Below, piece after piece: positions 5,609 through 36,300 of a stretch of DNA of 64,000 nt (position 1 is its first letter; the number at the start of each line of letters is the position of its first letter). A program made the position numbers and the translations under genes. Below the pieces are notes generated by a model that saw nothing but the letters and a program-made list of their open reading frames with translations, did not search any database and was not told the DNA's origin. The stretch comes from Gaiellaceae bacterium (GTDB lineage Bacteria; Actinomycetota; Thermoleophilia; Gaiellales; Gaiellaceae), in contig JBHEMZ010000054.1 of the NCBI GenBank assembly GCA_046262315.1, forward strand, positions 267 to 64,266, read 5' to 3'.

Positions 5609-5775
5609 CCCTCGAACGTCCGGCGCGCTGGGCGCGCCCTGCCGAGGATTCCAAGTCAGACGCGTCGGGGTAGCGAGGTGGCTGCGCCGGGCAAAGCCGG
5701 CTCCGCCTATGTTCCGCGGGGTGCGCGCTCTGATTCATGCGGAGAAGCAGATGCCCTCCGGGCTAGACTGGTTCG

Positions 5776-24882: not shown

Positions 24883-25821
24883 ATGAGGTCCGACGAGCTT
24901 GACTACGAGCTTCCGCCGGAGCTGATCGCCCAGCGTCCCGTCGAGCGGCGTGACCAGTCGCGGCTGCTCGTCTACGACCGTGCCACGCGGGAGGTGCGCC
25001 ACCGGCGCTTCGCGGAGCTGCCGGAGGAGCTCACCGACGAGCTCGTCGTCGTGAACGACACGCGCGTAATCCCGGCGCGCATCCGCGCGCGGCGGGCGAG
25101 CGGGGGAGAGGCCGAGGTGCTGCTGCTCGAGCCGCTCGGCGGCGGCGAGTGGGAGGCGCTCGCGCGGCCGTCGAAGCGCCTGCGCCCCGGTCACCGCGTC
25201 GGCCCCGCGGAGCTCATCGAGTTGCTCGCCGAGGGGCGCTGGCGCGTCCGTCTCGAGGGAGAGCCGGCGGGCGAGACCCCGCTGCCGCCGTACATCGACG
25301 AGCCGCTCGCCGACCCGGAGCGCTACCAGACGGTCTACGCCGACGCGGCGGGGTCGGCGGCGGCGCCGACGGCGGGGCTGCACTTCACCGAGGAATTGCT
25401 CGCACGGCTCGACGTCGAACGCGTCACCCTCCACGTCGGCCTCGACACGTTTCGGCCGATCGCGGCCGACCGCGTCGATGAGCATCGCCTCCACAGCGAG
25501 CGCTATCAGGTCGCCGCCTCTGCGTGGGAGCGGATCCGTGCGGCGCGACGCGTGCTCGCGGTGGGCACGACGACGGTGCGTGTGCTCGAGTCGCTCGCGC
25601 GGAGCGCGCCGCTCGCCGGCCGCACTGACCTGTTCGTGCAGCCCGGGTTCGCGTTCGCGCGTGTGGACGCGCTGTTGACGAATTTTCACCTGCCGCGCTC
25701 GACGCTGCTCGCGCTCGTGATGGCGTTCGCCGGCGTCGAGGAGACGCGCGAGCTCTACCGCCTGGCAATCGCCGATCGGTACCGCTTCTATTCGTTCGGC
25801 GACGCAATGTTGATCCGCTGA
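24883..25821 (+). CDS. queA: S-adenosylmethionine:tRNA ribosyltransferase-isomerase
   Basis: DYELPPELIAQRP, SRLLV, LPPYI, AAPTAGLHFT, AVGTTTVRVLES, TNFHLPRSTLL and YRFYSFGDAMLI. Confidence 0.92.
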   Translation: MRSDELDYELPPELIAQRPVERRDQSRLLVYDRATREVRHRRFAELPEELTDELVVVNDTRVIPARIRARRASGGEAEVLLLEPLGGGEWEALARPSKRLRPGHRVGPAELIELLAEGRWRVRLEGEPAGETPLPPYIDEPLADPERYQTVYADAAGSAAAPTAGLHFTEELLARLDVERVTLHVGLDTFRPIAADRVDEHRLHSERYQVAASAWERIRAARRVLAVGTTTVRVLESLARSAPLAGRTDLFVQPGFAFARVDALLTNFHLPRSTLLALVMAFAGVEETRELYRLAIADRYRFYSFGDAMLIR

Positions 25822-25919
25822 AAGTCCGCCGCCGCTCCGCGGCGGCATGACGACTTTCAGCGGATTCGAAGATCACGACGCGTCTACGCGCGTCGTGACT
25901 GCGGCGGGGGAACCCCGCC
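25815..25919 (+). terminator. Cluster of three strong GC-rich stem-loops downstream of queA
   Basis: Hairpin 1 (25815-25863) has a 12-bp outer stem (CCGCTGAAAGTC/GACTTTCAGCGG) and an 8-bp inner stem. Hairpin 2 (25873-25898) has a 10-bp stem (TCACGACGCG/CGCGTCGTGA). Hairpin 3 (25903-25919) has a 7-bp stem (GGCGGGG/CCCCGCC). Confidence 0.5.
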
Positions 25920-25949
25920 TCCGTCGGTGGGGGAGGCTGAGCCGGCAGC

Positions 25950-26370
25950 GGGCGTAGGCACCACCCCGGCGCCGGGCCGTTTGCCTGGAGGTCTACGGTG
26001 GCGCCGTACTCGCGCGTCGCCCTCGATCTTGGCCGCGCTCGCGACTCTCCACATCACGACAAGGCAGTCGACGCCTTCTAGCGCCGCGGCGTGACGGGAG
26101 CGCCTGAGCGGTGGTTGGCCGCCGAGATCCCGATCACGCCGGCGCGCTTCTCGTCCGCCGTCAACGCGGCTAGGTTGGTGAGCGCGCCACGCGGCTTGAA
26201 CGACCCCATGCGCTGGAACAGCTCGGCCTCGAGGCGCACGTCGGCGCCGGTCCGCCGCGACAGCGTCGCGGACGTGAGCGTCGGCGTGCGGTGCAGACGC
26301 CGTTCAACCGCCTCGCGGGCGCGGTGAGCATCGTCCGGCGACGGGAAACGGCACGTGCCGATCGTAGGCC
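25950..26370 (-). pseudogene. Decayed and truncated PLP-dependent threonine/serine dehydratase-like gene
   Basis: Family-like pieces are spread over three frames with an in-frame stop: HRTPTLTSATLSRRTGADVRLEAELFQRMGSFKPRGALTN...GVIGISAANH / AQAL / GVDCLVVM...AKIEG / EYGATVDLQ. Only the N-terminal ~140 residues remain. Confidence 0.55.
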
Positions 26371-26406
26371 AGACCCGCGGACCGCCTCAGCGGCGTGCGT
26401 AGGCGC

Positions 26407-29400
26407 TCATGGGGCGCAGAGGGTCTTCCCGTTCAGGAAGAACGCTTCGTGGACGTCGGTCGGCCCTGACCCCTGGACGATGCCGCCGCCCGCGATGTAG
26501 ATGCCACCGTCGCAAACCGCGGCTTGGACGCCGTGCCGCGCCGTCGGCATCGGCGAGAGCGCCCGCCAAGAGTTCGCGCCCGGGTCGTAGGCCTCCACGG
26601 TGTTGAACACCTTGCCGCCGCCCTCGCCGCCGATGACGACAATCTCGCCGCCCATCGCGGTCGCGGCGAAGCCGCCGCGCGCCGTCGGCAGCGGCGCGAA
26701 GCCGGTCTTCCACGAGCCGGACGGGAAGTCGTACGCGTCGTTGGCGGTCGTCGTGGCATTGATGTCCTTGTTGCGTCCGCCGATCGCCCAGAACTTGCCG
26801 TTGAGAACGACGGCGTGGAAGTGGTCGCGTGCGCGCGGCATGTCCGGCAGCTGCTGCCACGTGTTCGCAACCGGGTCGTACACGTCGAACCACGGGACCG
26901 CGATGCCGTTGTTCAAGCCGCCGGCGTAGTAGATCTTGCCGTTGTGCACGGCGACCCCGCCTGCGCCGCGCGGCCTCGGCATCGGCGCCCCCTGCGTGAA
27001 CGTGTTCGTCGTCGGGTTGTAGACGTAGACCGAGGCCACTGCCGGCGACGGCCACGACGCGAGTCCGCCGACGTAGTAGATCCGCGCCCCGTACTCGACG
27101 CCTTGAATGTGGTCGAGCGCGGCCGGGAGCGGCGCGACCTCCGTCCACGAGTCGACCGCGGGGTCGTACGCGTACTGATTCGTCCCACCGCCGGCGAGGT
27201 ACAGCTTCCCGCCCGCTTGCACGAACGAGACCTCCTGCCGCGCGACCGGGAGCTTCCCGCGACTCTCCCACGAGCCCACCGGCTTGCCGCTGCCGTCGAG
27301 GACCTCGATGAAGTCCCAGCTTGCCGGGAACTCCGGCGCGGGGCCTGCCGAGGTGGAGATGATGCCGACCGCGAGGCCCCTCGTCGCCGTGAACCAGCCG
27401 GCGGGGATCGGCTCGGCGGCACCGAGCAGAGTTCGCGTACCGGGCGTCCCGTCGATCGTCACGACGTAACTGGGCTGGACGGTCTTCGCAGCCACGTTGA
27501 CCTCGAAGTAGAGATCGATCGCGCTCGGGCCGGGCAGCGCGACCGCAGACGTGCGCGCCGCGCTCGTCACGGCGCCCGCCTCCTTGAGGAAGGCGACGGC
27601 CCCGGGGCCGCCGTTCGCCGAGACGACGATCTTCACGTAGTTGTCTTGGTCGCCGGCCCCGACGAAGAGGCCCATCGACTGGTTGCCCTGCGGCACGAGA
27701 CCGGCGAAGGGGGCGAGGACGCGTGTGTGTGCCGTGAACGAGCCGCTCGTCGGGGGCTTGACGCCGAACTGGAAACCGTACTTCTGCGTGTTCGTCGTTC
27801 CGAGCGCGTCGCCCTCGGCCACCTTGTCGACCGTCGTCACGCCCGCGGCGCCGCCCGCCGTCATGTTGGCCGGGTCGAACAGCGACTCGTAGTTCGCCGT
27901 CCCGTTCGTCATCAACCCGGTGAATCCGAGCCCGAGGAGGCCGCCGGCGCGCGGCGCGTCGTTGTCCCACGAGTACCGAACCGGAATCGTCGTCGCGGTT
28001 CCGTTGGTGCCGTCGACGGCGAACGGGTCGGACGTGTCAGGAAGCGTGTCGTTGTCGTCGTCCGGGTCGTTGAGGTCCGAGATCTTGTCTCCGTCGGCGT
28101 CCTTGGGCACGTCGGCCGCCGAGCACGGGCTCGTCCCGTTGTCGATCTCGTCGGCGTTCTTGAACCCGTCGCCGTCCTCGTCGCTCGTCCACGAGTCGAC
28201 GCCCGTGCAGGTGATCGGTGCAGCGCCGCCGAGGTCGTTCGGCTCGAAGACCACGATCGAGCCGTTGCCGTGGTCTCCGACCCAGATCGTCCCCGGGAAC
28301 GTGGTGCCGTCCCCCAGCGTCGTGACGTCGAGCGGCACCGAGCCGACGGTCGAGAACAGCGCCTGCTTGAGCGTCACCGCGTTCCCGGAGCTCGAAAGCT
28401 CGATCCGGTAGATCTTGTTGTCGAACGACGCGGTGAGGAGATCGCCCTTCAGGGCGCCGCCGAAGTTCGAGGCCGTGTACTCCGTCAAGCCGTTGGTCGA
28501 GGCGGAGAAGCTCGTAAGCGCCCCGCGCACCGAGGGCGGGCGGTAGTCGCATTCCACGGGATTTGCGGTTGGCACGGGCGACTGCTTGTTGAACGTGTTG
28601 GACTGGTTGCCGCGAGTCGGGTTCGGATGGCCACCGTAGTAACCGGCGGCGGAGACGAAGTGCAGGGTGTCCGGTTCGGTCGCCCCCGCCTCGCTGATCT
28701 CGTTGGTGCAGACGCCGGAGGGTCCCTCGTTCTTCGGGATACCGCCCCATCCGGCGTTTCCGCCGTTGTCGATGGTGTACATCCGTCCGCTCGACGTGAG
28801 GACGAGGTCGTACGCGTTCCTGAAGCCCGCGGCGTACACCTGCACCGGGCCGCCTGCGACGACCTTCGCCTGGTTCGTGCCATCGTTTCCGCCGAAGGGG
28901 TCGTACTTGTCGGCCTTGCCCTTGCCCGTCAGCGTCGGCAGGTCGTACGTCGTGTTGCCGATGGCACCGAGGTTGATCTTCAGAATCGCCGCCGACAGCG
29001 CGAATTCAGGCAGCAGCGCAAAGTTGTTCGACGGCGCGCCCTCGTTGGTGTTCCCGCCCTGCGCGACGTACAGCATGTTGGTCGCGGCGTCGAACTGCAT
29101 GCCGTTTGCCGAGTGGTTCTCTTCGGAGCGCGGCAGGCCGCGAACGAGGTCGAGCTTCTGCCACGACGAGCCAGTCCACGTCAAACGAGACACCAGGCTG
29201 GAGTTCGTGTCGAGGCCGAGGTCCACCCCGGCGGGACCCGAGCCGATTCTCGGGTCACTCGATGTCGCGTAGATCACCGGGTTCGCCGCCGTGCCCGTGA
29301 CGAGGATGCCGGTCACGATGCGAGTCATCACGCTCGGGTTCGGCCTGCCGTCGTCGTTGTGGTTCGGGATGTCCCGGATTCCCGTAAGCGTCTCGGTGGC

Positions 29401-30453
29401 GCTGACCGAGTACGCGTTCGGCCCGTTGCGCTTGACGGTGTAAATCTTGATCAGGCCATCGAGTTGGGCAACGTAGAGCCGCCCGTCGGGGCCGAACTGG
29501 AGCGACGTTACCTGCGACGACGTCTCGCCAGCGAGCAGACTCTTTCCGAAGCCGATCGGCGCGGCGGCGCCGGCTTGACCGCTCAACGGGATCGAGACCG
29601 TGTTCGCGCCGGACTGGGCGACGTGGAGCATCGCCGACTTGGCGCCCATCGTCGTGGGAGCAAACGTCACGTTGAGCGCCGCCGACGCGCCCGGTGCCAG
29701 CGTCACGCTGCCGGCGTCGTCAAAGGAGTCCTTGAACTGCGCCGCCTCGACGCCCGTGATCGAAGTCGAGTCGATGACAATCGCGGGGTCACCGGCACTG
29801 CCGACGTTCGTCAGCGTCACCTGCTTCTGGCCCGTCTGACCCACCGAGACCGACCCAAAGGAGACGTTTGTCGGCAGCGCACCGAGCTGGTTCGGCGCCG
29901 CCGCGACGATCTCGATGCCGTTGACCGCAGGGTTTTGGACGACGTGGCCGAAGTCGACGTCCAGCGAAGCGTCGCTCTTGACGAGAATTCGCTTGACGAC
30001 ACCCTTGTTGCCACCCACCGCGGCGTAGACGTCGTAGTCGTCGAGAGCGAGCTTGCCCTCGACGGAGACGTCGAAGACCCGGTTGCCGACGGCCATCGCG
30101 CCGCTGTAGATCTCCGCCAGGTAGAGCCGTACCTCGTAGGCGCCCGCCTCGACCGGGAGATCCCACTGCATCTCCGGCGCCGTGACGGGGTCCCAGCGCT
30201 CCGTCTGGAAGACCGCGGCGGGGGTGCCTACCGGGACGGACGGATCCGTCACGTTGATCGCGGTCGACGTTGCGTAGGTCTTCGTCGCCGACGAGTTCGA
30301 GTACGGGGAAGGCGCGGTTGCTGTATCAGCCGTCCAGCCCGTTAGAGTCGGGCCGCCGACATTGATGCGGTGGACGACGGAGCCCGGCGTGGCGGTCATT
30401 CCGGCCGACGCGAGCAGGCCCGCGAGTACGAAAGCGACCGCAGCTAGCTTCAC
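26407..30453 (-). CDS. Large secreted multidomain protein
   Basis: 1348 aa from the GTG preceded by GGGGGAG.
- Domain order: signal peptide, malectin, ASH/PapD-like, glucose/sorbosone-dehydrogenase-like beta-propeller, TSP3-type Ca-binding repeats, lectin-like domain, Kelch beta-propeller.
- Malectin: INVGG...FQTERW...YEVRLYLAEIY...NRVFDVSVEG...VNGIEIV.
- Propeller: GFRNAYDLVL...YTIDNGGNAGWGG.
- TSP3 repeats: DEDGDGFKNADEIDNGT...DADGDKISDLNDPDDDND.
- Kelch repeats: GKLYLAGG, ARIYYVGG, GKIYYAGG, GKFWAIGG, GEIVVIGG, GGIYIAGG. Confidence 0.85.
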   Translation of the reverse strand: MKLAAVAFVLAGLLASAGMTATPGSVVHRINVGGPTLTGWTADTATAPSPYSNSSATKTYATSTAINVTDPSVPVGTPAAVFQTERWDPVTAPEMQWDLPVEAGAYEVRLYLAEIYSGAMAVGNRVFDVSVEGKLALDDYDVYAAVGGNKGVVKRILVKSDASLDVDFGHVVQNPAVNGIEIVAAAPNQLGALPTNVSFGSVSVGQTGQKQVTLTNVGSAGDPAIVIDSTSITGVEAAQFKDSFDDAGSVTLAPGASAALNVTFAPTTMGAKSAMLHVAQSGANTVSIPLSGQAGAAAPIGFGKSLLAGETSSQVTSLQFGPDGRLYVAQLDGLIKIYTVKRNGPNAYSVSATETLTGIRDIPNHNDDGRPNPSVMTRIVTGILVTGTAANPVIYATSSDPRIGSGPAGVDLGLDTNSSLVSRLTWTGSSWQKLDLVRGLPRSEENHSANGMQFDAATNMLYVAQGGNTNEGAPSNNFALLPEFALSAAILKINLGAIGNTTYDLPTLTGKGKADKYDPFGGNDGTNQAKVVAGGPVQVYAAGFRNAYDLVLTSSGRMYTIDNGGNAGWGGIPKNEGPSGVCTNEISEAGATEPDTLHFVSAAGYYGGHPNPTRGNQSNTFNKQSPVPTANPVECDYRPPSVRGALTSFSASTNGLTEYTASNFGGALKGDLLTASFDNKIYRIELSSSGNAVTLKQALFSTVGSVPLDVTTLGDGTTFPGTIWVGDHGNGSIVVFEPNDLGGAAPITCTGVDSWTSDEDGDGFKNADEIDNGTSPCSAADVPKDADGDKISDLNDPDDDNDTLPDTSDPFAVDGTNGTATTIPVRYSWDNDAPRAGGLLGLGFTGLMTNGTANYESLFDPANMTAGGAAGVTTVDKVAEGDALGTTNTQKYGFQFGVKPPTSGSFTAHTRVLAPFAGLVPQGNQSMGLFVGAGDQDNYVKIVVSANGGPGAVAFLKEAGAVTSAARTSAVALPGPSAIDLYFEVNVAAKTVQPSYVVTIDGTPGTRTLLGAAEPIPAGWFTATRGLAVGIISTSAGPAPEFPASWDFIEVLDGSGKPVGSWESRGKLPVARQEVSFVQAGGKLYLAGGGTNQYAYDPAVDSWTEVAPLPAALDHIQGVEYGARIYYVGGLASWPSPAVASVYVYNPTTNTFTQGAPMPRPRGAGGVAVHNGKIYYAGGLNNGIAVPWFDVYDPVANTWQQLPDMPRARDHFHAVVLNGKFWAIGGRNKDINATTTANDAYDFPSGSWKTGFAPLPTARGGFAATAMGGEIVVIGGEGGGKVFNTVEAYDPGANSWRALSPMPTARHGVQAAVCDGGIYIAGGGIVQGSGPTDVHEAFFLNGKTLCAP

Positions 30454-31302
30454 CACTCCCCCGTGCCGGCTTCGACCACCGACTCGGCCGATCACGAGCC
30501 GAAGCCCGCATACGACTCGCGGCACGAGAACGAGGCTACGGTGACGACGTGGTAATCAGCAGCGTCTCGAACGCCGGCGTCGCGTCGCTCCGGCGAGGCG
30601 GAGTGCGATGAGGCGCTCCCGCGCTTGCTCGTTATCGATCCTCCTCGTCCAAAAGCGTCGTTTCTCACCACGAGTAGTGATTACCATATGGCACCACGGC
30701 TAAGGGTCTCAACCCAAGCGCGGCAGCGGCGAGCGCCGCTGCGAGCAGGACGAGCGCGATTGCGCAAGCCATCTAGTCGCTGGACGCTCACGGTGACCGC
30801 CGGTCAGACCGCGACCGCGACGATGACGCTCGTCCGCAACTGGGCGTCGACATCACGGTGAAGCTGGGTGGAGGAGCATGCTTCGTGCGGGCGCTGAACC
30901 GGCCGTCGCCGTGGCGGCGTTCGTCGTCGCCGACCTGCCGGCCGCGGACGCCGTGCCCTTGACGCCCATCGTCAGGAGCCCGTCGCGCGTGTTGTTGAGG
31001 CCGCCGGGACCTGGCGGAACGTGAGGACGTGGCCGTCGCTGCCTGTGAGCGGGCGCGGTCAGCTGTCCGTCTTGAGGCTGTCGAGCAACGCGAGCCGGAA
31101 GAGCGCCTTGTTCGCGGCCAGCCAGTTTCCGCGCCGCTGCCTCCGCGGTCACCCCGGACGCGGTTCCGAGAAGCCGGATGCGGTCGAACCTACTCCACTC
31201 GGGCGAAAAGGGAAAATTGCTATCGGTCCGAGCGCGATCGGACGCGCCCCCCGCAGCCCCGCCTTTAGTGGAGGTATGGAGCCCGTTCCCGGCGCATGTT
31301 TT

Positions 31303-31320
31303 GCACATGTGTTAATGTGC
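31303..31320 (+). promoter_or_regulatory. Candidate vapBC operator (GCACA-N8-TGTGC, containing the palindrome CACATGTG)
   Basis: An inverted repeat in a locally AT-rich patch, 6 nt upstream of the vapB ATG. Autoregulation of TA modules at such sites is established; assigning that role here is inference. Confidence 0.3.
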
Positions 31321-31325
31321 TGGCC

Positions 31326-31559
31326 ATGTCGAAGATGATCCAGATCCGCAACGTCCCCGAAAACCTCCACCGCCGGCTGAAGAGCCGCGCGGCCGAACAG
31401 GGCCTCACGCTTTCGGACTTCCTCTTGCGCATGGCCGAGCGGGAGGCGGAGCTTCCGACCATCGAGGAGCTCACGGAGCGGATCCGCCGCCGTGGTCCGG
31501 CGCACGCCGGCGTGGCGAGCGCCGAGATCGTGCGCGAGCTGCGTCACGAGAACGGTTGA
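31326..31559 (+). CDS. vapB: Type II antitoxin, ribbon-helix-helix (FitA/VapB-like)
   Basis: MIQIRNVPENLHRRLKSRAAEQGLTLSDFLL is the typical RHH antitoxin N-terminus. The gene overlaps the PIN gene by 4 nt. Confidence 0.8.
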   Translation: MSKMIQIRNVPENLHRRLKSRAAEQGLTLSDFLLRMAEREAELPTIEELTERIRRRGPAHAGVASAEIVRELRHENG

Positions 31560-31945
31560 TCGTCCTCGACAGCTCGGCCGCCGTCGACTTCGTCGCGCGC
31601 CTCGGTTTCGGGGAGTGGGTTGGCGCGGCGATCCGGGCGGAGCCGACCGTGCACGCGCCCCACGTGCTGGACGTCGAGGTTCTCGGAGCTCTGCGCAGGC
31701 TTGTGCTCCGAGCCCTGATCACAGAGGACGAGGCACACGGCGCCTTGGAGGATTTCAAAGCTCTGCGGGTCCGCCGGTACCCGCACGTGCCCTTCGTCGC
31801 TCGGATCTGGGAGCTACGGCAGACGCTCTCGCCGCCGGACGCGGCATTCGTCGCGCTCGCCGAGGCGCTCGACGCTCGGCTCGTGACCACGGACCAGCGA
31901 CTCGCGCGCGCCCCCGGTCTGGCAGTGGAGGTGCTCGCTCCATGA
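31556..31945 (+). CDS. vapC: PIN-domain ribonuclease toxin
   Basis: IVLDSSAAVDF (first acidic residue), a conserved E (LDVEVLGAL), DAAFVALAEAL and RLVTTDQRL. The TTG start overlaps the vapB stop. Confidence 0.85.
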   Translation: MIVLDSSAAVDFVARLGFGEWVGAAIRAEPTVHAPHVLDVEVLGALRRLVLRALITEDEAHGALEDFKALRVRRYPHVPFVARIWELRQTLSPPDAAFVALAEALDARLVTTDQRLARAPGLAVEVLAP

Positions 31946-33069
31946 CCTTCGCGGTGGTCGCGACCGACGGCGACGCCCGCGCCGGCGTCCTGCGCACTGC
32001 CCACGGCGAGGTGCCGACGCCCGCGTTCATGCCCGTGGGCACGAAGGGGACGGTCAAGGGCGTCGACCCCGACGAGTTGCGCGCGCTTGGCGCGCCGATC
32101 GTGCTCGGTAACACGTACCACCTGCACTTCCGCCCGGGCGCCGACGCGATTGCGGAGCTCGGCGGCCTGCACCGCTTCATGGGCTGGGACGGCCCGATCC
32201 TCACCGACTCGGGCGGCTTCCAGGTCTTCTCGCTGCGCCACACGATCGTTGCCGCGGACGACGAGAGCGTCACGTTCCGGTCCGTGTACGACGGGGACAC
32301 CGCGCGCTTCACGCCACAGGCAGTCGCGGCGGTGCAGGCGCAGCTCGGCTCGGACGTCGCCATGTGCCTCGACGTCTGCCCCCCGGCGGGCGCAACGCGC
32401 GAGGAGCTTGCCGCCGCAGTCCGCCGCACCTCCATTTGGGCCGCCCGCCAGCGCCACGCCCACCGCGCACCAGGCCAGCTCCTGTTCGGGATCAGCCAGG
32501 GCGGCGTCGACGACGAGCTGCGGCGGCGCTCGATCGACGAGCTCGTTCCGCTCAACTTCGACGGGTACGCGATCGGCGGCCTCTCCGTCGGTGAGCCGCG
32601 CGACCTCACCTTCGAGGCTGTCGCCCGTGCCGCCCCACTGCTGCCCGCCGACCGTCCCCGCTACTTCATGGGCATCGGCGACTCGCAGGGCATCCTCGAG
32701 GTGATCGAGCGCGGCGTGGACATGTTCGACTGCGTGCTGCCGACCCGTCTGGGGCGCACCGGGACAGCGCTGACGGCCGCGGGCCGCCTCAACCTTCGCA
32801 ATGCCGGCTTCGCTCGCGACTCCGCGCCGCTCGAGGACGGCTGCGCGTGCCCGACCTGCTCCCGCTTCTCGCGCGCGTACCTCCGGCACCTCGTCAACCA
32901 GCAGGAGCTGCTAGGCCTGCGCCTGCTGACGCTCCACAATCTGTACTTCCTGCTCCGTCTGACTGCGGGCGCGCGGGCCGCGATCGAGCGCGGCGAGCTA
33001 GCATCCTTCAAGGCCGAGGCGCTCGCCCGGCTGCGCGAACCGTCCCGGGAGGCAGCTTGCAGCCACTGA
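31942..33069 (+). CDS. tgt: Queuine tRNA-ribosyltransferase (tRNA-guanine transglycosylase)
   Basis: TPAFMPVGT, LGNTYHL, ILTDSGGFQVFS, GYAIGGLSVGE, the zinc site CACPTCSRFSRAYLRHL, and HNLYF. The ATG overlaps the vapC stop (ATGA). Confidence 0.93.
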   Translation: MTFAVVATDGDARAGVLRTAHGEVPTPAFMPVGTKGTVKGVDPDELRALGAPIVLGNTYHLHFRPGADAIAELGGLHRFMGWDGPILTDSGGFQVFSLRHTIVAADDESVTFRSVYDGDTARFTPQAVAAVQAQLGSDVAMCLDVCPPAGATREELAAAVRRTSIWAARQRHAHRAPGQLLFGISQGGVDDELRRRSIDELVPLNFDGYAIGGLSVGEPRDLTFEAVARAAPLLPADRPRYFMGIGDSQGILEVIERGVDMFDCVLPTRLGRTGTALTAAGRLNLRNAGFARDSAPLEDGCACPTCSRFSRAYLRHLVNQQELLGLRLLTLHNLYFLLRLTAGARAAIERGELASFKAEALARLREPSREAACSH

Positions 33070-33383
33070 TCTTCATCGGCGTGATGGTCGTGCTGATGTA
33101 CGTGCTCTTGATCGCGCCGCAGCGCCGCCGTCAGGCCGCGCAGCGCCGCATCCTCGAGGACGTGTCGGTCGGCGACGAGGTGCTGACCGCAGGCGGCGTC
33201 TACGCGACTGTCCAGGCCGTGCGTGAGGACGATCTCACCGTCGAGATCGCGCCCGGTACAAGCGTCCGCCTCGACAAGCGGGCGGTCGCGCTCGTGCTCA
33301 GCGAGGACGATTCGGCGGACGGCGAGGCGGAGCCCGCCGAGACGGCCGAGGACGAGGAGCCGACAGAGGCGGCACGAACCTAG
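33057..33383 (+). CDS. yajC: Preprotein translocase subunit YajC
   Basis: A single TM helix followed by LLIAPQRRRQ and VGDEVLTAGGVYATV. A TTG start is proposed (GTG 33081 or ATG 33084 are possible). The position between tgt and secDF is canonical. Confidence 0.8.
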   Translation: MQPLIFIGVMVVLMYVLLIAPQRRRQAAQRRILEDVSVGDEVLTAGGVYATVQAVREDDLTVEIAPGTSVRLDKRAVALVLSEDDSADGEAEPAETAEDEEPTEAART

Positions 33384-33405
33384 TCGCTACCCTGAGGTCT
33401 CCCGC

Positions 33406-36300
33406 GTGTCGAACCGGCGTACACAGCTCTTCCTAGTTCTCGCCGTCCTCGCGGCGCTCGTCGGCGTCGCTCTGCTGGTGATCCCGGGCACGCCGATCCA
33501 CCGCAGCCCGACGCTCGGTCTCGACCTCCAGGGCGGCCTCGAGGTCGTGCTCGAGGCGCAAACTCCCGCGGAACAGCAGCTGACCGACAGCGACATCGAC
33601 CGTTCGGTCACGATCATCCGCGACCGCATCGACAAGCTCGGCGTGTCCGAGCCCGAGGTGCGCAAGCAGGGGAACAACCAGATCGTCGTCCAGCTCGCCG
33701 GCGTCTTCAACCAGGATCGCGCGGTGCAGATCATCGGCTCGACCGCGCAGCTCGAGCTCTACAAGCTGGAGGCGGATCTGGTTCAGCCGTCGTTCGACGC
33801 GATCAATTCGTCGCCCGTCGCGCAAGAAGGGCTCTTCGACCTGCTCGCGCCCGTCTCCCAAACGGCACAGGACGGTACGCCGGAGGCCTGGTTCTTGTTC
33901 AACCCACAGAAGAAGCTGATCGCCGGGCCGGCGAAGACCCGTGATGAGATCGAGCGCTCCCGGGCCTACCGGTGCGCCACGGGGGGCCGCGTGGGCGAGG
34001 ACGTGGACTGCGCGAAGATCACCGGCACGACCGGCGGCGGACAGCCAGGCGGGGGCACCACCGGGGGAGCGGGCGGCAAGAAGGCGGGCAAGCCTGCGAC
34101 CGGCGAGCTTCCGAAAGGCTACAAGCTCTTCGCGCAGCCGGCGAACACGAAGATCATCACGTGCGACGACAGCTCGGACGTGTGCCCGAGCGTGCAGGAG
34201 TCGCCGCCCTCGCAGACCTACTACTACCTCTTCAAGTACGAGCCGGACGCCGAGGAGCCGGTCCCGGAGATGACCGGCGAGGATCTCAAGCTCGACGGAA
34301 CGCGGCAGGACTTCGACCCATCGTCGCGCGAGCCGATCGTCCTCATGCAGTTCACCGACTCGGGCGCCGACAAGTTCCACAAGATCACGCGTGAGCTGGC
34401 GCAGGCGGGGCTGATCCTGCACGGCCGGGTCGGGGGGGAGGAGCGAAACGCGTTCCAGAGCTTCGCGATCGTGCTCGACGACGAGATCAAGTCGTTCCCG
34501 ACCATCGACTTCAGTGAGAACCCCGACGGGATCGCGGGCGACAACGGGGCGCAGATCACTGGCATGGGCTCGATCGGCGAGGCCAAGGACCTCGCGCTCG
34601 TGCTCCAGACGGGTGCCCTGCCCATCGAGTTCAAGATCGTCGACCGGACGAACGTCTCGGCCACGCTGGGCAAGGACTCGCTGCGCCAGGCCATGCGCGC
34701 CGCCGTCGCCGGCTTGGCGATCGTCGCCCTCTTCCTGATCCTCTTCTACCGCTTCCTCGGCGTCGTCGCCGTGGCCGGCCTGGGCGTCTACGCCGCGCTC
34801 CTGTACGCGGTGCTGCTGCTCTTCAACGTCACGCTGACCCTGCCGGGCTTCGCCGGCATGATCCTCACCATCGGCGTCGCCGCCGACGCCAACATCGTCA
34901 TCTTCGAACGGATCAAGGAGGAGTCCCGCGCGGGCAAATCCGTGCGAGCGGCCATCGGTGCGGGCTACTCGAAGGGCTTCGCGACGATCGTGGACGCGAA
35001 CGTGGTGACGGCCATCGCTGCCCTCGTGCTATTCGCCGTGGCCACCGCCGGCGTAAAGGGCTTCGCGCTCATGCTGCTGATCGGGACGGCGATCTCGATG
35101 GTCACCGCAGTCGCCGCTACACGCGCCCTGCTGGGCCTGCTGGCCGGCTTCCGCTGGTTCGACAGCCCCCGCTTCATGGGCGCGCAGGGCCAGCAGACGG
35201 CGCGCTGGCTCCAGATCGACTTCATGGGACTCAGGCGCTACTGGTTCGCAATGTCGGGCCTGGTGCTCTCCGTCTGCATCGGGGCGCTGATCCTCTCCGG
35301 GCTCAACTTGGGCATCGACTTCAGGGGCGGCACGCAGATCACCTTCGAGACGCCCCGGGCGGTCGCCATCGAAGACGTGCGCGACGTGATGCGCACCGTG
35401 GACCAGGGCGACGCCGTCATCCAGGGCCGCGGCACGGCGCAGGCGGACAAGTTCACAACCTTCCAGGTGCGCACCGAGTCGCTGTCGCAGCCCAAGATCG
35501 AGACGGTGCAGGACGCGCTGAAGACCCGTTACGGCGAGAACATCGCGTCGGGCGTCAAGAGCGTGTCCGAGAGCTTCGGCAGCCAGATCGCCAAATCGGC
35601 GCTGCTCGCCATCTTCGTCTCGTTCCTGCTGATCGTCATCTACATCTCGCTGCGCTTCCAGTGGAAGTTCGCCGTGCCGGTGCTCGTGGCGATCGGCCAC
35701 GACGTGCTGATCACGGTCGGGATCTACGCGCTGCTCGGGCGGGAGGTGACGACGGCAACCGTGGCCGCGGTGCTGACCGTGCTCGGCTACTCGATGTACG
35801 ACACGATCATCATCTTCGACCGCATCCGCGAGAACCTGCCGCTCATGCGTCGGGCGTCGTTCGCGACGATCGCCAACGTTTCCATCTGGGAGACGGTGCG
35901 CCGCTCGCTGGCGACCACCTTCATCACGCTGCTGCCGGTCGGCGCGCTCCTGCTCTTCGGCGGCGAGACGCTCAAGGACTTCGCGTTCGCCCTGCTCATC
36001 GGGATCGGCACCGGCGCCTACTCGACCATCTTCATCGCCTCGCCGCTTTTGACCATCTGGAAGGAGCGCGAGCCCGAGTTCGCCCGCAAGCGCGACCAGG
36101 AGGCCGGGGGCGGCGACGGCAAGGCGCGCGGGGCGGAGGCGGACCGGGTGCTTGCTGCCGCCACCGTCGCGGCCGCGGAGCAGCCGGCGCCGGAGCTCGC
36201 CCCCACGATCGACGGTGGCGACGGCGCCTCCCGCAGCGACGCCCGCCGTGAGCGGCGCCGCCAGCGCAGGCGCTCGCGGCCGCACGGCCGGGCCCGGTAG
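33406..36300 (+). CDS. secDF: Fused protein-export membrane protein SecDF
   Basis: The SecD part has LGLDLQGGLEVVLEA and GFAGMILTIGVAADANIVIFERIKEE. The SecF part has IDFMGLRRYWF, LGIDFRGGTQITFE and YSMYDTIIIFDRIREN, all in one ORF. The start is the GTG giving VSNRRTQLF. Confidence 0.9.
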   Translation: MSNRRTQLFLVLAVLAALVGVALLVIPGTPIHRSPTLGLDLQGGLEVVLEAQTPAEQQLTDSDIDRSVTIIRDRIDKLGVSEPEVRKQGNNQIVVQLAGVFNQDRAVQIIGSTAQLELYKLEADLVQPSFDAINSSPVAQEGLFDLLAPVSQTAQDGTPEAWFLFNPQKKLIAGPAKTRDEIERSRAYRCATGGRVGEDVDCAKITGTTGGGQPGGGTTGGAGGKKAGKPATGELPKGYKLFAQPANTKIITCDDSSDVCPSVQESPPSQTYYYLFKYEPDAEEPVPEMTGEDLKLDGTRQDFDPSSREPIVLMQFTDSGADKFHKITRELAQAGLILHGRVGGEERNAFQSFAIVLDDEIKSFPTIDFSENPDGIAGDNGAQITGMGSIGEAKDLALVLQTGALPIEFKIVDRTNVSATLGKDSLRQAMRAAVAGLAIVALFLILFYRFLGVVAVAGLGVYAALLYAVLLLFNVTLTLPGFAGMILTIGVAADANIVIFERIKEESRAGKSVRAAIGAGYSKGFATIVDANVVTAIAALVLFAVATAGVKGFALMLLIGTAISMVTAVAATRALLGLLAGFRWFDSPRFMGAQGQQTARWLQIDFMGLRRYWFAMSGLVLSVCIGALILSGLNLGIDFRGGTQITFETPRAVAIEDVRDVMRTVDQGDAVIQGRGTAQADKFTTFQVRTESLSQPKIETVQDALKTRYGENIASGVKSVSESFGSQIAKSALLAIFVSFLLIVIYISLRFQWKFAVPVLVAIGHDVLITVGIYALLGREVTTATVAAVLTVLGYSMYDTIIIFDRIRENLPLMRRASFATIANVSIWETVRRSLATTFITLLPVGALLLFGGETLKDFAFALLIGIGTGAYSTIFIASPLLTIWKEREPEFARKRDQEAGGGDGKARGAEADRVLAAATVAAAEQPAPELAPTIDGGDGASRSDARRERRRQRRRSRPHGRAR

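What the first reader, a model, noticed from the sequence alone, without database searches (positions are those of the whole stretch)
25822..31941. The conserved queA-tgt-yajC-secDF operon is split by a ~6.1 kb insertion
Established knowledge: queA, tgt, yajC, secD and secF are contiguous in E. coli and many other bacteria.

Seen in the sequence: queA ends at 25821 and tgt starts at 31942. Between them lie:
- a triple-hairpin cluster;
- a frameshifted and truncated PLP-dehydratase remnant;
- a 4-kb secreted-protein gene on the opposite strand;
- ~0.87 kb with no assignable gene;
- a vapBC module whose stop overlaps the tgt start.

No integrase, transposase or direct repeats were seen, so the origin is unclear. 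It could be old and ameliorated, since GC content looks host-like.
Basis: partly seen in the sequence, partly recalled or inferred. Interest (0 to 1): 0.6.

Follow-up and report, generated by a model that had tools for sequence, protein, structure and literature searches.

The report
Mosaic gene insertion between queA and tgt
In this Gaiellaceae-like actinobacterial genome, the normally adjacent queA and tgt genes are separated by about 6 kb of acquired DNA that arrived in at least two pieces, which is ordinary genome plasticity at a site invaded repeatedly in related genomes.

Summary
queA (24883-25821) and tgt (31942-33069) lie 6.1 kb apart. In 31 of the 33 relatives where both genes lie close together on one contig, the gap is under 2.2 kb. 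It is usually 5-150 bp, and no relative has this content.

The stretch is not a single insertion:
- **Triple hairpin (25815-25930).** This is the ancestral spacer, not cargo. It is one copy of a ~112-bp dispersed REP-like repeat with 92 hits in this genome. Three congeners have it at the same place.
- **vapBC (about 31283-31945).** This is a separate unit. Another species of the genus has it alone at the same site, with the same 4-nt overlap between the vapC stop and the tgt start.
- **Remaining ~5.3 kb (about 25950-31286, minus strand).** It holds one intact gene for a secreted malectin/Ig/propeller/Kelch protein with no ortholog in 40 relatives. Elsewhere its homologs sit in polysaccharide clusters.
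- **Edges of that block.** Both ends are broken gene fragments: a PLP-dehydratase 5' remnant and an M36 metallopeptidase remnant. The M36 remnant lies inside the "gene-less" 0.87 kb.

No integrase, transposase, tRNA gene or flanking repeat was found. The best reading is illegitimate integration of foreign chromosomal DNA. At least six other lineages of the order carry different genes at this junction. Interest is low to moderate. Read-level checks of the assembly could not be run.

The parts
24883..25821 (+). queA (S-adenosylmethionine:tRNA ribosyltransferase-isomerase), left flank
   Evidence: PF02547, E 6.4e-108. Orthologs at 73-84% identity in the genus and family.
25815..25930 (.). REP-like triple-hairpin element that encloses the queA stop codon. 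It is the ancestral queA-tgt spacer, not cargo.
   Evidence: Fold of -85.8 kcal/mol, z -6.55. The genome has 92 nhmmer hits, 55 of them near full length. The orthologous copy lies between queA and tgt in G008, G010 and G011, with compensatory stem changes. No Rfam family matches.
25963..26365 (-). Pseudogene: 5' part (about residues 15-150 of ~320) of a PLP-dependent threonine/serine-dehydratase-like gene. It is frameshifted and truncated at its 3' end next to the REP element.
   Evidence: Three-frame reading. PF00291, E 1.5e-13. 75.5% nucleotide identity to the intact copy on C139. Equidistant from all genus orthologs, on a long branch.
26407..30453 (-). Intact gene for a secreted 1348-aa protein (malectin, choice-of-anchor-D/Ig, propeller, Ca-binding Asp-rich repeats, lectin-like region, Kelch propeller). 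The longest ORF extends to 30525.
   Evidence: Pfam and NCBIfam. GC3 is about 0.9 throughout. No ortholog in 40 relatives. Best database homologs are about 64% identical and lie in polysaccharide clusters.
30454..30891 (-). Non-coding upstream region of the Kelch gene, with the only sigma-70-like promoter match of the region (30712-30683).
   Evidence: No codon-position GC periodicity. Promoter-like site TTGAGA-18-TATGGT on the minus strand. No homolog in relatives.
30892..31286 (-). Pseudogene: decayed N-terminal-region fragment (about residues 39-171) of an M36 (fungalysin-type) secreted metallopeptidase gene, with in-frame stops and a frameshift. Its 5' end is cut at the vapBC boundary.
   Evidence: tblastn with the G005 M36-like protein gives two collinear pieces, E 2.5e-11. 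The match to this genome's own C57 M36 gene (PF02128) has E 0.002. DNA hits fall on the conserved motif in G009, G005 and C57.
31283..31325 (+). vapBC upstream region with palindromic operator-like sequence. This is the left edge of the unit shared with G002.
   Evidence: Alignment with the G002 upstream region; homology starts at about 31275-31294.
31326..31559 (+). vapB antitoxin (ribbon-helix-helix, FitA-like)
   Evidence: PF22513, 28.4 bits against a cut-off of 27. 68% identical to the G002 protein at the same site. Alignment.
31556..31945 (+). vapC PIN-domain toxin. Its start overlaps the vapB stop, and its stop overlaps the tgt start (ATGA).
   Evidence: PF01850, E 8e-11. The acidic residues D5, E42, D95 and D113 are conserved in both species. 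Junction sequences.
31942..33069 (+). tgt (queuine tRNA-ribosyltransferase), right flank
   Evidence: PF01702, E 1.2e-141. Orthologs in 39 of 41 genomes.
33066..33383 (+). yajC
   Evidence: PF02699, E 1.5e-21.

Best explanation
**Ancestral state.** queA and tgt were neighbours, separated only by a ~112-bp REP-like triple hairpin plus about 20 nt.

**What happened.** In the lineage of this Gaiellaceae-like MAG, about 6.0 kb (roughly 25940-31941) came to lie between them, in at least two events.

1. A vapBC toxin-antitoxin module was placed directly in front of tgt, so that the vapC stop overlaps the tgt start. One other species of the genus has the same module, alone, at the same base-precise junction.
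2. A ~5.3-kb piece in the opposite orientation (about 25950-31286) was integrated between the REP element and the vapBC promoter.
   - Its only intact gene encodes a secreted malectin/Ig/propeller/Kelch carbohydrate-binding protein. In other Actinomycetota that gene sits inside polysaccharide-synthesis clusters.
   - Both of its ends are truncated, frameshifted gene fragments: a PLP-dehydratase 5' part on the left and an M36 peptidase N-terminal part on the right.

**Inferred mechanism.** The block has broken genes at both ends and lacks an integrase, transposase, tRNA target and flanking repeats. I therefore infer illegitimate (or homology-facilitated) recombination of a linear piece of foreign high-GC chromosomal DNA, not the action of a self-mobile element.

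**Inferred consequences.**
- queA now converges on the Kelch gene across the hairpins.
- tgt-yajC-secDF are most likely transcribed from, and translationally coupled to, the autoregulated vapBC unit.
For: **Synteny.**
- The queA-tgt gap is about 105-148 bp in 9 of the 11 other species of the genus. It is 5-474 bp in most of the family and 14-20 bp in most of the order.
- Adjacency is also common across bacteria.

**Ancestral spacer.** G008, G010 and G011 have the same triple-hairpin element between queA and tgt. Homology with the window ends at about 25935.

**vapBC is a separate unit.**
- G002 has vapB (68% amino-acid identity) and vapC (53%) between queA and tgt, and nothing else. Nucleotide identity is 68% over 684 nt.
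- The last codon and the overlap are homologous: CCATGA here, CCGTGA in G002.

**The block is foreign.**
- No ortholog of the Kelch gene occurs in 40 relatives; only generic Kelch propellers match, at 30-35% identity.
- Its tetranucleotide distance from the genome mean is at the 98.9th percentile, and its GC is at the 11th percentile.
- All four homolog contexts examined are polysaccharide gene clusters.

**Truncated ends.** The PALP remnant and the M36 remnant bound the block.

**No mobility signatures.**
- No boundary repeats.
- No tRNA gene within 15 kb either side.
- Only the listed Pfam families occur in the cargo.
Against: - A MAG chimera is unlikely, since it would need two junctions, but it is not excluded.
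- vapBC occurs in two species that are not sisters. G002's sister G001 lacks it, and G000 sits in an unresolved polytomy. Its history could be ancestral with several losses, exchange between congeners, or two gains. This is open, and so is the order of the events.
- The two pseudogene fragments are heavily decayed. The PALP remnant is 69-74% identical at the nucleotide level to every genus ortholog, this genome's own copy included. The M36 remnant is about 39% identical at the amino-acid level. The 5.3-kb block may therefore have been built by several insertions and deletions rather than one fragment.
- No donor was found. The best homolog of the Kelch protein is about 64% identical.
Confidence: 0.7

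Rival explanations
1. Stepwise accretion at a hot spot. The PLP-dehydratase gene, the M36 peptidase gene and the Kelch gene each arrived separately at the queA|tgt junction, and later deletions left only fragments of the first two. The site would then be a junkyard built by three or more events, not by one 5.3-kb fragment.
For: The same junction holds unrelated cargo in at least six other lineages. Both fragments are far more decayed than the intact Kelch gene. About 440 nt of unassignable DNA lie between the M36 remnant and the Kelch gene.
Against: All three pieces share one orientation, and the truncated genes sit exactly at the outer ends of the block. That is what a single random fragment would give. 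No relative shows an intermediate state with an intact PALP or M36 gene at this site.
Confidence: 0.2
2. One genomic island of about 6 kb, with vapBC as its stabilising module, inserted as a unit by a site-specific or transposition mechanism whose machinery was later lost.
For: From general knowledge, toxin-antitoxin modules often ride on islands. The whole stretch is absent from most congeners.
Against: G002 has vapBC alone at the identical junction. No integrase or transposase domain, no att-like repeats and no tRNA gene were found. The ends of the block are broken genes.
Confidence: 0.05
3. Assembly artefact: the contig is a MAG chimera, and the block belongs to another organism of the community.
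For: The left junction lies next to a repeat with about 92 copies. The Kelch gene has an atypical tetranucleotide profile. The read data could not be consulted.
Against: The repeat copies are only about 75-85% alike, too diverged to mislead an assembler. A chimera would need two false joins 5.3 kb apart inside a 65-kb contig. The PALP remnant belongs to the genus-level ortholog group. GC3 is host-like.
Confidence: 0.04
4. The arrangement is ancestral, and the intervening genes were lost in all the relatives.
For: None beyond the presence of vapBC in one other species.
Against: The gap is 5-20 bp in most of the order, and in two family genomes the queA stop directly abuts or overlaps the tgt start. 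No Kelch ortholog occurs anywhere in 40 relatives.
Confidence: 0.01

Closest known systems
Lineage-specific accessory-gene insertions at permissive intergenic sites of conserved gene clusters ('integration hot spots' between core genes)
   Same: Conserved flanking core genes, different cargo in different lineages, cargo biased towards secreted or accessory functions, and gene remnants at the site.
   Different: No integrase, IS element, tRNA gene or repeat marks the site. The cargo is small, one to a few genes. The evidence comes from MAGs only.
VapBC type II toxin-antitoxin modules (PIN toxin with ribbon-helix-helix antitoxin), as in Mycobacterium and the FitAB type
   Same: An RHH antitoxin gene overlaps a PIN toxin gene by 4 nt. 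The PIN acidic residues are conserved. A palindrome lies upstream.
   Different: The toxin stop overlaps the start of tgt, so the module is fused onto the front of the tgt-yajC-secDF genes in two species. Neither toxicity nor co-transcription has been tested.
REP/BIME-type repetitive extragenic palindromes, and the MIRU-like intergenic repeats of actinobacteria
   Same: A short (~112 bp) intergenic element made of stable hairpins, present in dozens of copies. It is sometimes tandem, stem pairing is kept by compensatory changes, and it overlaps a stop codon.
   Different: It has a three-hairpin architecture and no Rfam match. No RAYT-type gene lies next to any copy. It has not been described for Gaiellales in the papers searched.
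Malectin / choice-of-anchor-D / Kelch 'malectin domain-containing carbohydrate-binding proteins' of Actinomycetota, Acidobacteriota and Planctomycetota
   Same: The same domain set, and 50-70% identity over large parts.
   Different: Here the gene is orphaned from the polysaccharide-synthesis clusters in which all four examined homologs lie.

Membership tests
queA-tgt-yajC-secDF conserved cluster | All four gene families present, co-oriented, in this order | tested here: met
   PF02547, PF01702, PF02699 and PF02355/PF21760/PF22599. secD and secF are fused.
queA-tgt-yajC-secDF conserved cluster | queA and tgt directly adjacent | tested here: not met
   The gap here is 6120 bp, against 5-150 bp in most relatives.
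VapBC type II toxin-antitoxin | PIN-domain toxin with the conserved acidic residues | tested here: met
   PF01850, 43 bits against a cut-off of 23.6. D5, E42, D95 and D113 are conserved with the G002 homolog.
VapBC type II toxin-antitoxin | Small DNA-binding antitoxin gene immediately upstream, overlapping the toxin gene | tested here: met
   PF22513 (FitA-like RHH), 28.4 bits against a cut-off of 27. There is a weak hit to the NCBIfam VapB model, below its cut-off. The vapB stop overlaps the vapC start.
VapBC type II toxin-antitoxin | Toxin arrests growth and the antitoxin neutralises it | not testable with these tools
   Needs expression in a laboratory host.
Integrative genomic island / prophage-like element | Integrase or recombinase gene | tested here: not met
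   The cargo ORFs give only Malectin/Ig/Kelch, PALP, RHH and PIN families. There are no PADLOC hits.
Integrative genomic island / prophage-like element | Flanking direct (att) repeats or a target-site duplication | tested here: not met
   Only chance-level short repeats occur, and none is at the boundaries.
Integrative genomic island / prophage-like element | Insertion at a tRNA or tmRNA gene | tested here: not met
   No tRNA gene in 15000-45000.
Integrative genomic island / prophage-like element | Composition different from the host | tested here: inconclusive
   The Kelch gene's tetranucleotide distance is at the 98.9th percentile and its GC at the 11th percentile, but GC3 is host-like. The repetitive protein may itself bias the k-mers.
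REP/BIME-like repetitive extragenic palindromes | Short palindromic intergenic element in many copies | tested here: met
   92 hits, 55 of them near full length, and 17 adjacent pairs. Stable fold.
REP/BIME-like repetitive extragenic palindromes | Association with a RAYT (Y1 transposase) gene flanked by the repeats | tested here: inconclusive
   The genome has two PF01797 hits (C51, C132), but no repeat copy lies next to either.

The most novel reading that the evidence does not exclude
The queA|tgt junction of Gaiellales could be a true integrase-independent gene-capture site. Double-strand breaks or stalled replication at the hairpin-rich spacer would be repaired by capturing stray linear DNA, which would explain cargo bounded by broken genes. 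The captured vapBC module would then have taken over transcription and translational coupling of the tgt-yajC-secDF genes, tying protein export and tRNA modification to toxin-antitoxin autoregulation in two species.
Probability: 0.12. Interest if true: 0.5.

Novelty: new member of a known kind. Interest (0 to 1): 0.27.

Why it matters
On its own, this is an ordinary example of accessory DNA wedged into a conserved gene cluster, and it does not challenge current knowledge.

It is useful in three modest ways:
- It shows that one junction in an uncultured soil actinobacterial order (Gaiellales) has been filled independently at least seven times with unrelated genes. These encode mostly secreted proteins, a toxin-antitoxin pair, a GNAT and a glyoxalase-family protein.
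- It documents a REP-like three-hairpin repeat family that the papers searched do not describe for this group.
- It gives two natural cases in which a VapBC module is fused in front of tgt-yajC-secDF. This is a testable arrangement for asking whether toxin-antitoxin promoters can drive housekeeping operons.

Tried and rejected
- **Boundary repeats or att sites.** Only chance-level matches.
- **tRNA targets.** None.
- **Rfam.** Nothing for the hairpins or the gene-less region, apart from a spurious snoRNA hit at E 0.86.
- **PADLOC defence models.** No hits.
- **Donor search.**
  - The best Kelch homolog is about 64% identical.
  - The four homolog contexts examined show polysaccharide clusters and no neighbouring PALP or M36 gene, so no donor arrangement was recovered.
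- **Origin of the PALP remnant.**
  - It is not a recent copy of this genome's own C139 gene: 75.5% nucleotide identity by blastn, 73% in the alignment.
  - The tree cannot place it.
- **Traces of vapBC in other congeners' spacers.** None found; the tblastx output was high-GC noise.
- **REP element as the cause of the hot spot.** Not supported across the order. G018 and G031 have cargo with only 22-92-nt spacers and no such element.
- **RAYT association.** Two Y1_Tnp hits, neither next to a repeat copy.
- **Read-level validation.** An exact-sequence look-up of VapC found no other contig.
- **Literature.** Nothing on insertions between queA and tgt or on REP elements in Gaiellales.
Full report
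**1. What is there**

The window is part of a 65-kb contig of a 2.89-Mb MAG with 140 contigs and 70% GC. The closest named genomes are Gaiellaceae and other Thermoleophilia MAGs.

The flanking genes are confirmed by Pfam:
- queA at 24883-25821 and tgt at 31942-33069.
- yajC at about 33066-33383.
- A fused secDF within the ORF 33223-36300.

- A very stable hairpin cluster (-85.8 kcal/mol, z -6.55).
- A frameshifted PLP-dehydratase remnant on the minus strand. Read through, it matches PF00291 at E 1.5e-13.
- A 1372-aa ORF on the minus strand with malectin, Ig-like and Kelch domains. It has a signal-peptide-like N-terminus starting at the GTG at 30453.
- A stretch without codon periodicity.
- A vapBC pair, RHH plus PIN, whose stop overlaps the tgt ATG.

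**2. It is an insertion**

I located queA and tgt in 40 relatives: all 11 other species of the genus, 13 genomes of the family and 16 of the order.

- In the genus, the queA-tgt gap is about 105-148 bp in nine species, 319 bp in G001 and 977 bp in G002.
- In the family, it is 5-474 bp except in G017 (1.7 kb) and G018 (2.2 kb).
- In the order, it is mostly 14-20 bp. G031 has 5.5 kb, and five genomes have the two genes unlinked.
- In G021 and G022 the queA stop abuts or overlaps the tgt start.
- Adjacency is also common across other phyla.

None of the relatives has an ortholog of the Kelch gene. Only generic Kelch propellers match, at 30-35% identity.

**3. The hairpin cluster is resident, not cargo**

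blastn and nhmmer against the MAG show that 25815-25930 is one copy of a ~112-bp three-hairpin repeat. It has 92 hits on 45 contigs, 55 of them near full length, and 17 adjacent pairs.

In G008, G010 and G011, the whole queA-tgt spacer is this same element followed by about 20 nt. The alignment with the window is clear up to about 25935 and shows compensatory changes in the stems. G002 keeps the third hairpin at the same place.

The real cargo therefore starts at about 25940-25960. The element has no Rfam match.

**4. vapBC is an independent unit**

G002 carries, between queA and tgt, two hairpin repeats and a vapBC pair, and nothing else.
- VapB is 68% and VapC 53% identical to the window's proteins.
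- The DNA is 68% identical over 684 nt, and homology begins in the palindromic upstream region at about 31283.
- The junction with tgt is homologous to the base...CCA TGA CC here and ...CCG TGA GC there. In both, the vapC stop overlaps the tgt start.
- The PIN acidic residues are conserved in both.

In a QueA+Tgt tree, G002 is sister to G001, which lacks vapBC, with 100/100 support. G000 sits in an unresolved polytomy. No other genome of the genus or family has vapBC next to tgt.

The module's history could be ancestral with losses, exchange between congeners by recombination in the conserved flanks, or two gains. This remains open. Either way, vapBC exists at this junction without the rest of the insert.

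**5. The remaining ~5.3 kb is a block bounded by broken genes**

*Left end.* The PLP-dehydratase remnant covers roughly residues 15-150 of a ~320-aa protein and stops about 30 nt from the hairpin element.
- It belongs to the ortholog group that every species of the genus has, including this MAG's own intact copy on C139.
- It is about equally distant, 69-74% at the nucleotide level, from all of them, and sits on a long branch.
- It is therefore neither a recent internal duplication nor assignable to a donor.

*Right end.* The supposedly gene-less DNA contains a decayed fragment of an M36 (fungalysin-type) peptidase gene on the minus strand.
- With the G005 homolog as query, two collinear pieces (residues 39-130 and 133-171) align to 31286-31011 and 31005-30892, at E 2.5e-11. 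The alignment runs across two in-frame stops and a frameshift.
- The MAG's own M36 gene on C57 (PF02128) also matches.
- DNA-level hits fall on the conserved NW(L/I)xANKALFRL motif.
- The fragment ends within about 10 nt of the left edge of the vapBC unit.

*Middle.* Between the M36 remnant and the Kelch gene lie about 440 nt with no periodicity. They hold the only sigma-70-like promoter match of the region, correctly oriented for the Kelch gene.

*The Kelch gene.*
- It is intact, with GC3 near 0.9.
- Its tetranucleotide profile is at the 98.9th percentile of distance from the genome mean, and its GC (67.8%) is at the 11th percentile.
- Its best homologs, about 64% identical, are 'malectin domain-containing' or 'choice-of-anchor D' proteins of Actinomycetota, Acidobacteriota and Planctomycetota MAGs.
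- All four homolog contexts I read are polysaccharide-synthesis clusters with Wzy/Wzz, flippase, glycosyl- and sulfotransferases. Here the gene is orphaned from that context.

**6. Mechanism**

*Shown:*
- No integrase or transposase domain in the cargo.
- No att-like or target-site repeats.
- No tRNA gene nearby.
- No defence-system match.

*Inferred:*
- A block whose two ends are truncated genes in one orientation is what integration of a random linear chromosomal fragment by illegitimate or homology-facilitated recombination would leave.
- The alternative is several insertions and deletions at the same site. I cannot exclude this, and I give it about 0.2.
- After the insertion, queA converges on the Kelch gene across the hairpins.
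- tgt-yajC-secDF have lost their link to queA and are probably expressed from the vapBC promoter, given the 4-nt overlaps vapB/vapC and vapC/tgt.

**7. The site is used repeatedly**

Other lineages carry unrelated genes in the same gap:

| Genome | Cargo at the queA-tgt junction |
|---|---|
| G017 | A lipoprotein-like gene on the opposite strand (weak DUF3352 match) |
| G018 | Two RTX-type calcium-binding repeat proteins |
| G031 | A 1793-aa LamG-containing secreted protein |
| G024 | A GNAT acetyltransferase |
| Two further Gaiellaceae MAGs (L061, L062) | A tandem glyoxalase-family protein, plus a membrane protein in L062 |

Gaps of 0.6-3.4 kb also occur in some distant bacteria.

The hairpin element cannot be the general cause, because G018 and G031 have only 22-92-nt spacers around their cargo. 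The simplest reading is a permissive boundary between two genes that tolerate being uncoupled.

**8. Limits**

- The genomes are MAGs, some with obvious frameshift errors.
A chimera would need two false joins inside a 65-kb contig. The repeat copies are only about 75-85% alike. I rate a chimera at about 0.04.
- No donor was identified.

**9. Verdict**

- The insertion reading is supported. The single-event reading is not.
- This is a new instance of a known kind of genome plasticity, so interest is low to moderate.
- The side observations most worth keeping are the repeat family and the vapBC-tgt fusion shared by two species.

Noticed in passing
window 25815-25930 and 5613-5709; G000 genome-wide: A ~112-bp three-hairpin REP-like repeat family has 92 nhmmer hits on 45 contigs, 55 of them near full length, and 17 adjacent (tandem) pairs. 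Stem pairing is kept by compensatory changes between species. It has no Rfam family and is not mentioned for Gaiellales in the papers searched.
   Followed up: partly
window 25810-25825, compared with L002-L010: The queA stop codon lies inside the first hairpin of the repeat. Species with the element end QueA in ...L(L/I)R*, while several species without it end in ...LVL*. The element seems to have replaced the last codon or codons of queA.
   Followed up: no
L017 (G002) spacer between queA and vapB: Two tandem copies of a different ~130-bp hairpin repeat (GGGGGAAACCCGGTTTCCCCC core) share only the third hairpin with the window's element. This suggests modular repeat families in the genus.
   Followed up: no
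G000 C47:57-263 and C94:33-320: A second vapB (40% identity) and vapC (46-47% identity) lie at the ends of two contigs, probably one paralogous vapBC module split by the assembly.
   Followed up: no
G000 C51:4673-4933 and C132:8835-9152: Two Y1_Tnp (PF01797) matches score above the family cut-off and could be RAYT or IS200-like genes. No copy of the hairpin repeat lies next to either.
   Followed up: partly
window 30665-30772 (minus strand): A small hydrophobic ORF (MACAIALVLLAAALAAAALG...) and the sequence just upstream weakly resemble the signal-peptide region of the C57 M36 protein (E 0.21). It may be another remnant, or chance.
   Followed up: no
L042, L043, L146, L147: Homologs of the malectin/Kelch protein sit consistently inside polysaccharide-synthesis clusters (Wzy, Wzz, flippase, glycosyl- and sulfotransferases). 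This hints that the family acts on the cell's own exopolysaccharide.
   Followed up: partly
G002, G006, G007, G019, G022, G038 tgt/queA loci: tgt or queA appear split into several frames or carry internal stops in these few-contig MAGs. This is most likely from indel errors in long-read assemblies rather than real pseudogenes.
   Followed up: no
window 33066-33383 and 33223-36300: The longest secDF ORF overlaps yajC by 160 nt in another frame, so the true secDF start is probably after 33383. SecD and SecF are fused into one ~970-1025-aa protein.
   Followed up: no
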